Below, one piece after another: positions 3,001-6,000 of a stretch of 15,816 nt of DNA. Source of the DNA: a virus (Duplodnaviria; Heunggongvirae; Uroviricota; Caudoviricetes); the IMG/VR virus record IMGVR_UViG_2917408641_000001. One strand, written 5' to 3'. Position numbers: made by a program. Position 1 is the stretch's first letter. The number at the start of each line of letters is the position of its first letter.

Positions 3001-6000
3001 AGAAATCATTTTTCTGAAATTCTTTGTTATAATATTAGAAGCCTGTTCTTTATTTAGAAGGCGAGTTTTCTTTGCTGGAATTTGCTCATTGGTATTTACA
3101 ACTCTTTTAGCTGGAATGCTTTTTTGCTGGGTGGTTGTACTTGGTTCTGTTGCATTACTTTGGGTGAGAGGAGCGACATAATTACCTGTTACTTTCATGA
3201 TGCACCTTTACTGATGGTTTGTTGACTGGATGGTATTTAAAAATAGCCTGTTTTGGTTAAGCTATCATTTATAAATGACATAAGGGATTTATATTTAATT
3301 AAAAAATTTATAGTTAACTTTCCTTGTTTTCATAGCATACAACAACTCATATGGTACTTAAAATAACATTTTTGAGTGCTGGAAGCACCATATCATAAAA
3401 ACAGGGATTTCATCGTGAAACAAGAAAACGTTACTCTTTCAGTAGGTTATATCGGCATGGTTAATATAAAACCGAAGGTTTTGTGTTGTTCAATAAAAAA
3501 CTTTTCTACTGGAACTCAATGATCTAAAGTTGGTAATGCCTCCAATTAGTTGAATTAGGGGTATAATAGTCACTTTTAAGGTTCTTTCATGGTCACAGTT
3601 AACCTTCATTGCCCCCGTTGCCAGTCCGTTCAGGTTTACCGTCACGGGAAGAACCCAAAAGGACATGATCGATTTCGCTGCCGTGACTGTCATCGAGTGT
3701 TTCAGCTCACTTACCGTTACGAGGCCCGTAAACCGGGAGTTAAAGACCAAATCACTGAAATGGCTTTCAACGGTGCCGGAGTTCGCGATACTGCCCGTAC
3801 GCTGAAAATCGGCATTAATACAGTCATCCGGACTTTAAAAAACTCTCGCCACGAAGAATAACGTCATCCCCGGTCGCTCATGCTGATATGGCACTCATCT
3901 GCGAACTTGATGAGCAATGGAGTTTTGTCGGCAGTAAAGCGCGACAGTACTGGCTCTGGTACGCGTACAACACGAAAACTGGTGGCGTTCTGGCCTACAC
4001 TTTTGGCCCCCGGACTGATGAAACCTGTCGTGAATTGCTGGCGCTGCTTGCCCCTTTTACCATCGGTATGTTGACCACTGACGAATGGGGTAGTTACACC
4101 AGAGAGTTACCGAAGGAGAAGCATCTGACTGGTAAGATTTTTACTCAGCGCATTGAGCGCAACAATCTGACCCTGAGAACCCGAATCAAACGTCTGGCCC
4201 GCAGAACTATCTGTTTCTCGCGCTCTGTAGAACTTCATGAAAAAGTCATCGGTGCCTTTATCGAAAAATATATGTTCTACTAATTGGAGTCACCACCAAA
4301 TGGACTATATTGTCTAGTGACGTAATATTAACGAAATCGCAACTTCAATCTATATCCTTGTGGAATGAGTATAAGAAAAAGTTTGCGGGTAATGATGGGA
4401 TTTTGGATTTAAAGGAAGAAAAGAAATTGAAGCAGTTTATTAGTAAACAGCTAAATATTCCTGTTAAGGATGTATTTACTCCAGATATTTTTCCTTTAAA
4501 GAAAATCGAAGATTAACAAAATAAATAGACGAGACTGAATTAGTATTATTGTAATCTTTAACTGGTACCCTCACTTGTGAGGGCACCAAAAAGAAAACCC
4601 GCAGTTTTTACGCTGCGGGTTTCTGCTTTGGGATGTGTATAGGGTGCCTTATCAGTCTTGCCCTGACAACCGATTGACGGGGGAATCTCTTCCCCCGTCG
4701 CGGTTTCCTTACTGTTTACACTGTAAGAACGCCGCAAACTCCGCTCCCCAGAAGCTCATCCGTATCTCACACAGCGAACCGTGTAGCATCCAGATGATGA
4801 GGATTGCCGTTACGCAGAACGTAATGACCGTAAGCGATTTTTGCGACATAGCGCTTGCTCCTTTTTCGGTGAGGCGCTAACCTATCACTTGTCTAGGGTA
4901 GATGGTTAGGGCCTCGGTTAAACAAAAATGTTTTCCGGGGCCTTTCCACATCCGGCCTTCAGGTATTCCCTCCAGCCATCATGATCTTACCCACCAATAG
5001 TGGACACAGGACTAAGTGAGTAAACTCTCAACCAGAGGTGACTCATGACAAAACCAGTATCAATCAGCAAGAAGCCCCGTAAACAACATACGCCTGAATT
5101 TCGTAACGAAGCCCTGAACCTCGCTGAACGCATCGGTGTGGCCGCCGCAGCCCGTGAACTCAGCCTGTATGAATCTCAGCTTTATGCCTGGCGCAGTAAA
5201 CAGCAGCAACAAAGGAGTTCGTCAGAGCGCGAAAGCGAACTGGCCGCTGAAAATGTCCGCCTTAAACGACAACTGGCGGAGCAGGCTGAGGAACTGGCCC
5301 TCCTCCAAAAGGCCGCGACATACTTCGCGAAGCGCCTGAAATGAAGTATGTCTTCATCGAAAATCATCGGGCGGAGTTCAGCATCAAAGCGATGTGTCGT
5401 GTACTTCGGGTTGCCCGCAGCGGCTGGGATGTCTGGCTCAGGCGTCGTCACCAGATGAGCCTGCGCCAACAGTTTCGGCTCACCTGCGATACCGCTGTTC
5501 ATAAGGCATTCTTTGAGGCAAAGCAGCGATACGGTGCTCCCCGCCTTGCTGACGAACTGCCGGAGTTCAATATTAAAACCATTGCCGCCAGCCTGCGTCG
5601 TCAGGGGCTGCGGGCGAAAGCCGGCCGGAAGTTCAGCCCGGTCAGCTACCGTGCACATGGCCTGCCCGTATTGGAGAATCTGCTGGAGCAGGACTTCAGC
5701 GCCAGCGGCCCGAACCAGAAGTGGGCGGGTGACATCACGTACTTGCGTACCGATGAGGGCTGGTTGTATCTCGCAGTAGTCATCGACCTGTGGTCACGCG
5801 CCGTTATTGGCTGGGCGATGTCACCGCGAATGACAGCACAACTGGCCTGTGATGCACTGCAAATGGCGTTGTGGCGGAGAAGACGCCCGGAAAGCGGCAT
5901 TGTTCATACGGACCGTGGTGGTCAATACTGTTCAGGGGATTATCAGGCGCTGCTGAAGCGACACAACCTGCGTGGCAGGATGAGTGCGAAAGGCAACTGT

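What the first reader, a model, noticed from the sequence alone, without database searches (positions are those of the whole stretch)
4588..4980. Unannotated Hok-family type I toxin locus, bracketed by IS1 and IS3
A 46-codon minus-strand ORF encodes a Hok/Gef-like peptide (transmembrane helix, SLCEIR, AAF) with a strong RBS, a perfect 9-bp hairpin after the stop and a terminator at 4588..4619. The IS3 left end at 4982 abuts the expected 5' regulatory region where the promoter and an antisense Sok-like RNA would lie. Chromosomal hok loci in E. coli K-12 are known to be inactivated by nearby IS insertions, so this copy may be similarly silenced or deregulated. I found no mok-like overlapping frame by eye.
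Basis: partly seen in the sequence, partly recalled or inferred. Interest (0 to 1): 0.6.

Follow-up and report, generated by a model that had tools for sequence, protein, structure and literature searches.

The report
IS-truncated prophage Hok toxin locus remnant
This is a real but ordinary Hok-family toxin/antisense-RNA locus carried by a P2-like prophage, whose toxin promoter and mRNA 5' end were cut away by an IS3-family element, so the toxin gene is most likely a silenced remnant.

Summary
The 46-codon ORF 4849..4709(-) is a Hok/Gef peptide (Pfam 29.6 bits, cut-off 22), with the RBS, 9-bp post-stop hairpin and terminator as described. An ISEc16-like IS3-family element starts at 4982. An IS1-like element lies 270 bp downstream.

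The gene is not unknown. The window is identical to GenBank CP025979.1, and the exact peptide is named "Hok/Gef family protein" in public databases. The same locus occurs in 1,686 of 5,426 complete E. coli genomes, usually just after ogr at the right end of P2-like prophages.

Sixty-five intact relatives define a ~408-nt hok-type mRNA. It has a conserved promoter, a 5' GGGUGCCUU element that pairs with a 3' AAGGCACCC element (supported by covariation), and an antisense Sok-like gene.

In the window, homology stops exactly at the IS end. The promoter and the first ~14 nt of the mRNA are gone, along with ~25 kb of prophage late genes, and there is no target-site duplication. The ORF, the 3' element and the Sok-like gene (4855..4947,+) remain.

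Most likely the toxin is orphaned and silent. This resembles K-12 hokA, which carries IS150 in its leader. Interest is low.

The parts
4709..4849 (-). hok-type toxin CDS, 46 aa plus stop, intact
   Evidence: Pfam PF01848 scores 29.6 bits against a cut-off of 22. PHROG 251 scores 80.7 bits. It is 43% identical to K-12 HokA and 28% to HokC, with the conserved residues C12, T14, L26-C27-E28, E37, A39 and F41. Family median dN/dS is 0.15.
4858..4863 (-). Shine-Dalgarno AAGGAG, 8 nt before the ATG; the upstream CCTC (4874..4871) can pair with it
   Evidence: Read directly from the sequence. The CCUC/GGAG pairing appears in the predicted fold of the near-identical intact mRNA.
4855..4883 (+). Inferred Sok-like promoter: -35 TTGCTC (4855..4860), 17-nt spacer, -10 TAACCT (4878..4883)
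   Evidence: Its position matches the region just upstream of the annotated SokC start in K-12. In 64 of 65 homologues the hexamers are TTGNNN plus TAACCT or TATCCT, spaced 17 nt in 60 and 18 nt in 4. The strict consensus scan did not find it.
4891..4947 (+). Predicted Sok-like antisense RNA, ~57 nt: 5' tail, long hairpin, then UUUCC; complementary to roughly +49..+105 of the hok leader
   Evidence: Predicted fold -23.2 kcal/mol, z -3.6. The shape resembles that of annotated K-12 SokC, which was folded in the same call.
4877..4951 (-). 24-codon leader ORF starting at the conserved leader ATG (+45); it does not overlap hok
   Evidence: Across 65 homologues the length and frame of this ORF vary, and in only about a third does a leader ORF overlap hok.
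4937..4945 (-). AAAGGCCCC, the internal alternative partner of the lost 5' element (ucb-like)
   Evidence: The consensus structure of Rfam RF01794 pairs model positions 1-8 with this element in the intact relative.
4676..4699 (-). Post-stop hairpin, perfect 9-bp stem
   Evidence: Compensatory changes occur in the family: GC to AU in 23 sequences, a second pair changed on both sides in 19, and a third in 3.
4642..4657 (-). fbi-like 3' element (GACUGAUAAGGCACCC), which pairs with the mRNA 5' end in intact relatives; retained here without its partner
   Evidence: In the family, 89% of helix cells are paired, against 36-49% in slid registers. Six pairs show changes on both sides, reached by 1 of 500 shuffles. 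RNAalifold and the single-sequence fold predict the same closing helix.
4584..4623 (-). Intrinsic terminator after the fbi-like element
   Evidence: It is shared with the P2-type homologues and absent from the Stx-phage-type ones.
4982..6225 (+). ISEc16-like IS3-family element (orfA 5045..5344, orfB 5341..6195); its left end replaces the hok promoter and the first ~14 nt of the transcript
   Evidence: 98.6-98.9% identical to elements annotated as ISEc16. Terminal repeats are TGATCTTACCC and GGGTAGGATCA; the flanks are TCA and TGG, so there is no 3-bp duplication. Homology to intact loci stops at 4981.
3530..4299 (+). IS1-like element, 270 bp beyond the hok terminator, truncating the neighbouring DUF4875 gene (remnant 4310..4516)
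   Evidence: Inverted repeats found. The remnant matches the C-terminus of Pfam DUF4875. Homology to STEC316 resumes at 4298. No 9-bp duplication is visible.

Best explanation
The region is the right-end cargo module of a P2-like prophage: a hok/sok-type type I toxin-antitoxin locus of a 46-aa Hok subfamily.

In intact copies, a sigma-70 promoter drives a ~408-nt mRNA. That mRNA is held inert by pairing of its 5' end (GGGUGCCUUUCGGC) with a 3' element (AAGGCACCC and neighbours). A ~57-nt antisense RNA, transcribed from the opposite strand over the leader, is predicted to repress it.

In this window, an ISEc16-like IS3-family element sits at position +15 of that transcript. An associated rearrangement removed the promoter, the first ~14 nt of the mRNA and ~25 kb of prophage late genes.

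What remains is an intact toxin ORF with its RBS, the 3' fold-back element, the terminator and the complete antisense gene. The toxin gene therefore has no promoter of its own and lacks the 5' element needed both for fold-back control and, in the plasmid R1 paradigm, for activation of translation. It is most probably transcriptionally silent, while the antisense RNA may still be made.

Shown: family membership, the IS boundary, loss of the 5' segment, the RNA architecture of the family, and retention of the antisense gene.

Inferred: the transcription start, promoter activity, expression of the antisense RNA, and silence of the toxin.
For: Family and spread:
- Pfam HOK_GEF scores above its threshold.
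- The locus is in 1,686 of 5,426 complete E. coli genomes, annotated Hok/Gef.
- It lies directly after ogr in P2-like prophages and in phages P88, Chuche and Xuanwuvirus.

The 5' truncation:
- The alignment with intact loci breaks exactly at 4981/4982. Intact loci continue TAGATT-ACGCGC-GGGTGCCTTTCGGC.
- Across different flanking contexts, homology begins at a conserved -35/-10 pair and ends just after GGCACCC.
- The Rfam hok-leader model starts at GGGUGCC in the 99.3%-identical intact copy, scoring 46.3 bits (E 3e-9). The window copy scores only 25.7 bits.

The fold-back helix:
- The 5'-3' helix is supported by covariation and by two independent fold predictions.

The rearrangement:
- The missing 5' piece is nowhere else in the window.
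- There is no target-site duplication.
- In strains Q5 and ZH177, the hok locus and the early region that lies right of the IS here are collinear and 24-25 kb apart.

Other points:
- The consensus scan finds no promoter on either strand of 4400..5200.
- The Sok-like RNA folds like SokC, and its promoter geometry is conserved.
- K-12 hokA shows the same kind of event, with IS150 in its leader.
Against: - No expression data exist for this strain.
- The transcription start and both promoters are inferred from conservation and from positional homology with K-12 hokC/hokA and the Rfam model. They have not been mapped.
- The strict promoter scan also misses the inferred Sok-like promoter. Its negative result for an IS-borne outward promoter is therefore weak.
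- IS3 has been reported to activate neighbouring genes (from memory, not checked here). Read-through from within the IS cannot be excluded.
- The ORF is still intact. It differs from the STEC316 peptide at one residue (A8V), and the exact V8 peptide also occurs in intact loci. The event is therefore either recent or the ORF is still under selection.
Confidence: 0.8

Rival explanations
1. The locus is deregulated rather than silenced. Transcription starting inside or at the edge of the IS reads out through the left inverted repeat. This produces a hok mRNA that lacks fold-back inhibition and can be translated from its strong RBS, held in check only by the Sok-like RNA.
For: The ORF, RBS and Sok-like gene are intact. 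K-12 gef/hokC is still transcribed and still regulated by its antisense RNA despite an IS186 insertion (PMC3562002). The negative promoter scan is insensitive.
Against: No promoter-like site was found on the minus strand of 4982..5200. From general knowledge, the outward-facing -35 of IS3-family elements sits in the right repeat, not the left one that faces hok. In the plasmid R1 model the 5' element is needed to activate translation, so losing it should lock the leader closed. A constitutively translatable toxin would be counter-selected.
Confidence: 0.1
2. The retained part is kept for its antitoxin. The Sok-like RNA acts in trans on hok mRNAs of related P2-like or Stx prophages in the same cell or entering it (an anti-addiction or immunity role). 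The toxin ORF is a passenger.
For: The complete Sok-like gene survives 35 nt from the IS end. Leaders of the subfamily are 81-91% identical across P2-like and Stx phages, so cross-pairing is plausible. K-12 retains an annotated orphan SokX RNA whose hok ORF is reduced to 5 codons.
Against: Nothing shows selection on the remnant. The junction is absent from all 5,426 complete E. coli genomes and from the species-representative genomes, so it looks like a private, probably recent, event. Other hok copies in the source genome could not be examined. Retention of the Sok-like gene is equally expected by chance, given where the IS landed.
Confidence: 0.08
3. The IS made a simple insertion into an otherwise complete locus, and the promoter and 5' end lie just beyond the other IS end.
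For: IS insertion is the commonest IS event. K-12 hokA has exactly this arrangement, with the sokA remnant beyond IS150.
Against: The right flank (TGGCTCGTT...) is unrelated to the expected GCCGAAAGGCACCC. That motif is absent from the whole window even with 2 mismatches. There is no 3-bp duplication. The right flank leads into the P2 early region, which is 24-25 kb away in intact prophages.
Confidence: 0.01

Closest known systems
hokA/sokA of E. coli K-12 (IS150-disrupted)
   Same: HokA is the closest named toxin: 43% identity, with the shared C-terminal motif AAFLxCK, and it is the best NCBIfam match. In K-12, IS150 sits inside the leader and separates the promoter and 5' end from the toxin ORF.
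   Different: The window peptide is not a HokA orthologue (35 bits against the 89-bit equivalog cut-off). In K-12 the separated 5' piece is still present beyond the IS, so that was a simple insertion. Here it has been deleted along with ~25 kb. The IS is ISEc16-like, not IS150. The locus is prophage cargo, not a core chromosomal site.
hok/sok of plasmid R1 and hokC/sokC (Rfam RF01794 leader)
   Same: All the following match in layout: a transcript start about 7 nt after the -10 box beginning GGGUGC; 5'-3' fold-back pairing; an alternative internal partner AAAGGCCCC; a target hairpin; an antisense RNA with a 5' tail and a terminator-like hairpin; and a structured hairpin after the stop codon.
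   Different: The leader is divergent. The intact relative scores 46 bits and the window 26 bits, against a gathering score of 59; hokC scores 118. There is no conserved overlapping mok frame, and the position of the mokC ATG reads ATC here. The peptide is shorter, at 46 aa rather than 50-52.
hokW/sokW of Stx2 prophage Sp5 (Takada et al. 2021, PMC8621323)
   Same: It is also a prophage-borne hok/sok locus. [quoted passage not shown] The PHROG family that the window peptide hits is labelled 'MokW-like'.
   Different: HokW is 51 aa, begins MKQQKAM and has a GGGTGCTTGAGGCTATCTGCC leader, as read from the paper's primer table. That makes it a different subfamily. The 46-aa type is a separate locus, also found in Stx2a phages at 81% DNA identity. 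No experimental study of the 46-aa type turned up in four literature searches.
sokX remnant of E. coli K-12
   Same: It is a decayed hok-type locus of which only part survives.
   Different: It is the mirror image. K-12 keeps the promoter, leader and SokX but has lost the toxin ORF. The window keeps the ORF and the Sok-like gene but has lost the promoter and 5' end. There is no sequence similarity between the two.

Membership tests
Hok/Gef toxin family (Pfam PF01848) | Profile score at or above the curated gathering score | tested here: met
   29.6 bits against 22, covering residues 8-44. PHROG 251 scores 80.7 bits.
Hok/Gef toxin family (Pfam PF01848) | Peptide of about 50 aa with an N-terminal hydrophobic helix and conserved LCE and E-x-A-x-F residues | tested here: met
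   The alignment with K-12 HokA and HokC has invariant C12, T14, L26-C27-E28, E37, A39 and F41.
Hok/Gef toxin family (Pfam PF01848) | Membrane-damaging toxicity on expression | not testable with these tools
   Needs inducible expression of the 46-aa ORF.
HokA orthologue (NCBIfam NF007290 equivalog) | Score at or above the equivalog cut-off | tested here: not met
   35.2 bits against 89.
hok/sok-type type I toxin-antitoxin locus (R1 paradigm) | Own promoter driving a ~400-nt toxin mRNA | tested here: not met
   The conserved -35/-10 pair of 65 intact relatives lies upstream of the point where the IS begins, and it is absent from the window. The promoter itself is inferred, not mapped.
hok/sok-type type I toxin-antitoxin locus (R1 paradigm) | Fold-back pairing between the mRNA 5' end and a 3' element (tac-fbi) | tested here: not met
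   It is present and covarying in intact relatives. In the window the 5' arm is deleted and only the 3' arm (4642..4657) remains.
hok/sok-type type I toxin-antitoxin locus (R1 paradigm) | Cis-encoded antisense RNA over the leader, with its own promoter and terminator hairpin | tested here: inconclusive
   The positional homologue of SokC is present and complete at 4855..4947(+). It has a stable fold (z -3.6) and conserved promoter geometry. There are no transcript data, and the promoter hexamers each match only 3 of 6 consensus positions.
hok/sok-type type I toxin-antitoxin locus (R1 paradigm) | Overlapping mok reading frame coupling translation to hok | tested here: not met
   The window's leader ORF ends 27 nt before the hok ATG. 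Across the family the leader ORFs vary in length and frame.
Rfam RF01794 (sok / hok leader) | Covariance-model score at or above the gathering score of 59 bits | tested here: not met
   Window 25.7 bits. Intact 99.3%-identical relative 46.3 bits. K-12 hokC control 118.3 bits.
hokW/sokW (Sp5) | Same toxin and leader sequence as the characterised locus | tested here: not met
   The primer-derived HokW termini and leader differ from the window sequence (compared).
IS3-family insertion sequence (ISEc16-like) | TGA...TCA terminal inverted repeats, with overlapping orfA and orfB carrying an rve transposase | tested here: met
   98.6-98.9% identical to annotated ISEc16. Terminal sequences read. HTH_Tnp_1 and rve domains are recorded for the called gene in L143.
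IS3-family insertion sequence (ISEc16-like) | 3-bp target-site duplication, as expected after a simple insertion | tested here: not met
   The flanks are TCA and TGG. This indicates a deletion or recombination between IS copies rather than a simple insertion.

The most novel reading that the evidence does not exclude
The surviving Sok-like antisense gene is an expressed orphan antitoxin. It would repress, in trans, the hok mRNAs of related P2-like or Stx prophages, blunting their Hok-assisted lysis or post-segregational killing. The remnant would then act as a small-RNA immunity module rather than as junk.
Probability: 0.08. Interest if true: 0.5.

Novelty: new member of a known kind. Interest (0 to 1): 0.2.

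Why it matters
This mainly serves as a clean, well-documented example.

- A widespread 46-aa Hok subfamily is carried as cargo next to ogr in P2-like prophages, and also in Stx phages. It has the full hok-type RNA architecture, yet its leader scores below the Rfam gathering score, so the Rfam model does not recognise the RNA half.
- This subfamily seems to lack a conserved mok frame. That would be worth a look by people who study how Hok translation is coupled.
- The window copy adds another case of an IS element disabling a hok locus, as in K-12 hokA, hokC and hokE. This fits the view that chromosomal and prophage hok loci are frequently inactivated.

None of this changes current understanding.

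Tried and rejected
- HokW identity: considered because phage records label the gene 'MokW-like'. Rejected after reading PMC8621323, since HokW is a different 51-aa peptide with a different leader.
- hokX/sokX identity: considered. The K-12 sokX region shows no similarity.
- Exact IS-hok junction: not found in the 185,579 species-representative genomes nor in 5,426 complete E. coli genomes.
- The displaced 5' piece: searched for in the window and not found.
- Consensus promoter scan of 4400..5200: found nothing on either strand, but it also misses the inferred Sok-like promoter, so it says little.
- Four of the 17-mer pattern matches in IMG/VR (L031, L043, L080, L097) were chance matches in unrelated genes and were dropped.
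- Literature searches for a described P2-prophage hok gave only incidental mentions.
- Structure prediction was not attempted. A 46-aa single-helix peptide would add nothing.
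Full report
**Observation.**
The minus-strand ORF 4849..4709 encodes MSQKSLTVITFCVTAILIIWMLHGSLCEIRMSFWGAEFAAFLQCKQ. An AAGGAG lies 8 nt before the ATG. After the stop codon there is a perfect 9-bp hairpin (4699..4676) and an intrinsic terminator (stem 4623..4594 plus a T-tract). The left terminal repeat of an IS3-family element begins at 4982. An IS1-like element with 25-nt inverted repeats occupies 3530..4299.

**Is it a real Hok gene?**
Yes.
- The peptide scores 29.6 bits against Pfam HOK_GEF, whose gathering score is 22.
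- It scores 80.7 bits against PHROG 251.
- It is 43% identical to K-12 HokA and 28% to HokC, and shares the invariant Cys, Thr, LCE and E-x-A-x-F positions.
- It is not a HokA orthologue: 35 bits against the 89-bit NCBIfam cut-off.
- Among 38 distinct homologous coding sequences, the median dN/dS is 0.15 at a median dS of 0.34. The peptide is therefore under purifying selection in the family.

**Is it unannotated or unknown?**
No.
- Window 1..10849 is 100% identical to GenBank CP025979.1.
- The exact peptide is in public databases as 'Hok/Gef family protein', with a GenBank accession AUT25709.1. A UniRef entry for it is assigned to Escherichia marmotae. I did not read the annotation table of CP025979.1 itself.
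- The flanking flk gene is only about 85% identical to E. coli at the DNA level. Its closest species representative is E. ruysiae (95% protein identity, 94% DNA identity). The host is therefore a non-coli Escherichia.
- The same DNA locus occurs in 1,686 of 5,426 complete E. coli genomes and is annotated Hok/Gef in all 30 records listed.

**Native context.**
- In most genomes examined, the locus lies directly downstream of ogr, at the right end of a P2-like prophage. Variable cargo sits between it and the attachment site.
- It is present at 88-91% identity in P2-like phages (P88, Chuche, Xuanwuvirus, 500465-2) and at 81% in many Stx2a-converting phages.
- Several genomes carry it next to flk, as here. 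In L141 it follows ogr in a P2-like prophage; in STEC316, L144, L147 and L148 it follows tail-fibre and hypothetical genes and is followed by DUF4875.

**Architecture of intact relatives.**
I collected 65 distinct intact loci from IMG/VR, E. coli genomes and phages.
- Across several unrelated upstream contexts, similarity begins at a conserved promoter-like pair. The -35 is TTGCCG, TTGCCC or TTGAAA; the spacer is 17-18 nt; the -10 is TAGATT, TAGAAT or TAAATT. This is followed 7 nt later by GGGTGCCTTTCGGC.
- This is the same layout as K-12 hokC (TATAAT, 7 nt, GGGTGCTTGAGG) and hokA (TAGAAT, 7 nt, GGGTGCTTGAG).
- The Rfam hok-leader model aligns its first position to that GGG in the 99.3%-identical STEC316 copy (46.3 bits, E 3e-9).
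- Counted from that start, the hok ATG is at about +147 and the mRNA is about 408 nt long.
- Similarity between contexts ends just after a 3' GGCACCC.
- The 5' GGGUGCCUUUCGGCUGA can pair with the 3' ...GACUGAUAAGGCACCC. On the 65-sequence alignment, 89% of cells in this 17-pair helix are standard pairs, against 36-49% in slid registers. Six pairs change on both sides, a count reached by 1 of 500 shuffles.
- RNAalifold predicts the same closing helix independently. So does the minimum-energy fold of the STEC316 mRNA (-175 kcal/mol, z -7.2).
- The Rfam consensus structure offers an alternative internal partner, AAAGGCCCC.
- The post-stop hairpin covaries: GC to AU in 23 sequences, and a second pair changed on both sides in 19.
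- This is the classic hok design of fold-back inhibition with an alternative active conformer. That mechanistic reading rests on established work on plasmid R1 hok/sok (Gerdes and colleagues), recalled from memory.

**Antisense RNA.**
By position, the plus strand carries -35 TTGCTC (4855..4860), a 17-nt spacer, -10 TAACCT (4878..4883), and a start near G4891.
- The 57-nt product (4891..4947) folds into a short 5' region and a long hairpin followed by UUUCC (-23.2 kcal/mol, z -3.6). This resembles annotated K-12 SokC, folded in the same call.
- In 64 of 65 relatives the hexamers are TTGNNN plus TAACCT or TATCCT, spaced 17 nt in 60 and 18 nt in 4.
- The hexamers are weak matches to consensus, and the strict scan does not report them.
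- The antisense gene is therefore a well-founded prediction, not a demonstrated transcript.

**mok.**
Two leader ATGs (+17 and +45) are conserved. The ORFs that start at them vary in length and frame, and overlap hok in only about a third of sequences. At the position of the K-12 mokC start codon this subfamily has ATC. In the window, the +45 ORF has 24 codons and stops 27 nt before the hok ATG.

**What happened in the window.**
- Alignment with intact loci breaks precisely at 4981/4982.
- The element at 4982..6225 is 98.6-98.9% identical to ISEc16.
- The window retains the transcript from +15 onwards. It lacks the promoter and the 5' GGGTGCCTTTCGGC, and that motif is nowhere else in the window.
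- The IS flanks are TCA and TGG, so there is no 3-bp duplication.
- To the right of the IS come 360 bp of other cargo and then the early region of a P2-like prophage: ParM-like and stability genes, replication endonuclease and integrase. This region is 95% identical to E. coli prophages.
- In strains Q5 and ZH177, the hok locus and this early region are collinear and 24-25 kb apart.
- The simplest reading is an IS-associated deletion, or recombination between two IS copies. It removed ogr, all late genes and the 5' end of the hok transcript, leaving a grounded prophage remnant.
- The junction is absent from all complete E. coli genomes and from the species-representative genomes, so it appears private to this lineage.
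- The remaining 422 bp differ from STEC316 at three positions. One is the substitution A8V, and the exact V8 peptide also occurs in intact loci elsewhere.

**Consequence.**
The toxin ORF is intact but has no promoter of its own. It also lacks the 5' element which, in the R1 model, both locks the full-length mRNA and later activates translation. The antisense gene is complete and lies 35 nt from the IS end. I therefore rate 'silenced remnant with a possibly still-expressed antisense RNA' at about 0.8.

The rivals are transcription entering from the IS (about 0.1) and selective retention of an orphan antitoxin (about 0.08). A simple insertion is excluded by the sequence.

The best precedent is K-12 hokA, where IS150 lies inside the leader. 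IS186 lies 19 nt after hokC and disrupts its fbi (PMC3562002). K-12 sokX is the mirror image: the leader and the antisense RNA are kept, and the toxin ORF is lost.

**Relation to hokW.**
Phage annotations call this peptide 'MokW-like'. However, the experimentally characterised HokW of prophage Sp5 is a 51-aa peptide starting MKQQKAM, with a different leader. I found no experimental work on the 46-aa subfamily in the searchable literature.

**Verdict.**
This is a genuine, publicly catalogued Hok-family gene. It belongs to an uncharacterised but very common prophage-borne subfamily, and here it is disabled at its 5' end by an IS-associated deletion. It is ordinary in kind and of modest interest.

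Noticed in passing
window 11424-11511(-) and 11547-11621(-): Rfam matches above the gathering score to C4 antisense RNA (80.2 bits) and isrK (64.1 bits). They sit side by side in the early region of the P2-like prophage remnant, which suggests a P1/P7-style antisense-controlled immunity or antirepressor module.
   Followed up: no
window 6471-7749(-): A ParM/StbA actin-like segregation gene (319 aa) and a Plasmid_stab_B gene lie downstream of the phage replication gene A. This is a plasmid-partition module carried as cargo in a P2-like prophage.
   Followed up: partly
window 1117-4560: Chromosomal backbone homology ends at about 1117-1223. A 470-aa DUF4116 protein gene (1786-3198, minus strand) lies left of the IS1-like element and is absent from the otherwise matching STEC316 locus. 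The IS1-like element has no visible 9-bp duplication and truncates DUF4875 to a 68-aa C-terminal ORF. A second IS-associated rearrangement therefore borders the hok locus.
   Followed up: partly
window 4855-5045(+): The inferred Sok-like promoter points into the IS. Its predicted weak terminator (UUUCC) ends 98 nt before the start of orfA, so read-through could feed transposase expression.
   Followed up: no
alignment A2, columns 1-160 (all 65 homologous loci): This Hok subfamily has no conserved mok frame, although two leader ATGs (+17, +45) are nearly invariant. How hok translation is activated here is unclear.
   Followed up: partly
L053:122-555 and L121:7886-8322 (IMG/VR loci): Two divergent family members carry a tandem duplication of about 40 nt covering the post-stop hairpin region (alignment A2, columns 330-372).
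   Followed up: no
L094 (IMG/VR), about 250-330 nt upstream of its motif at 9942: An independent copy of the Stx-phage type has its promoter and the first ~35 nt of the leader replaced by unrelated sequence. This is a second example of 5' truncation in the subfamily.
   Followed up: partly
L149:1720-2079 (E. coli K-12, cas3-cysH intergenic region): The K-12 sokX region keeps a hok-type promoter, leader and the annotated SokX RNA, but the toxin ORF is reduced to 5 codons (ATG TGT ATA TCA CTG TAA). This is the mirror image of the window's remnant.
   Followed up: partly
L001, L144, L147, L148 (E. coli loci next to flk): In these genomes the nearly identical hok locus is preceded by tail-fibre, DUF4376, HP1_ORF34-like and 565-aa hypothetical genes, not by ogr. 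The hok module therefore sits in at least two different prophage backbones at the same chromosomal site.
   Followed up: no
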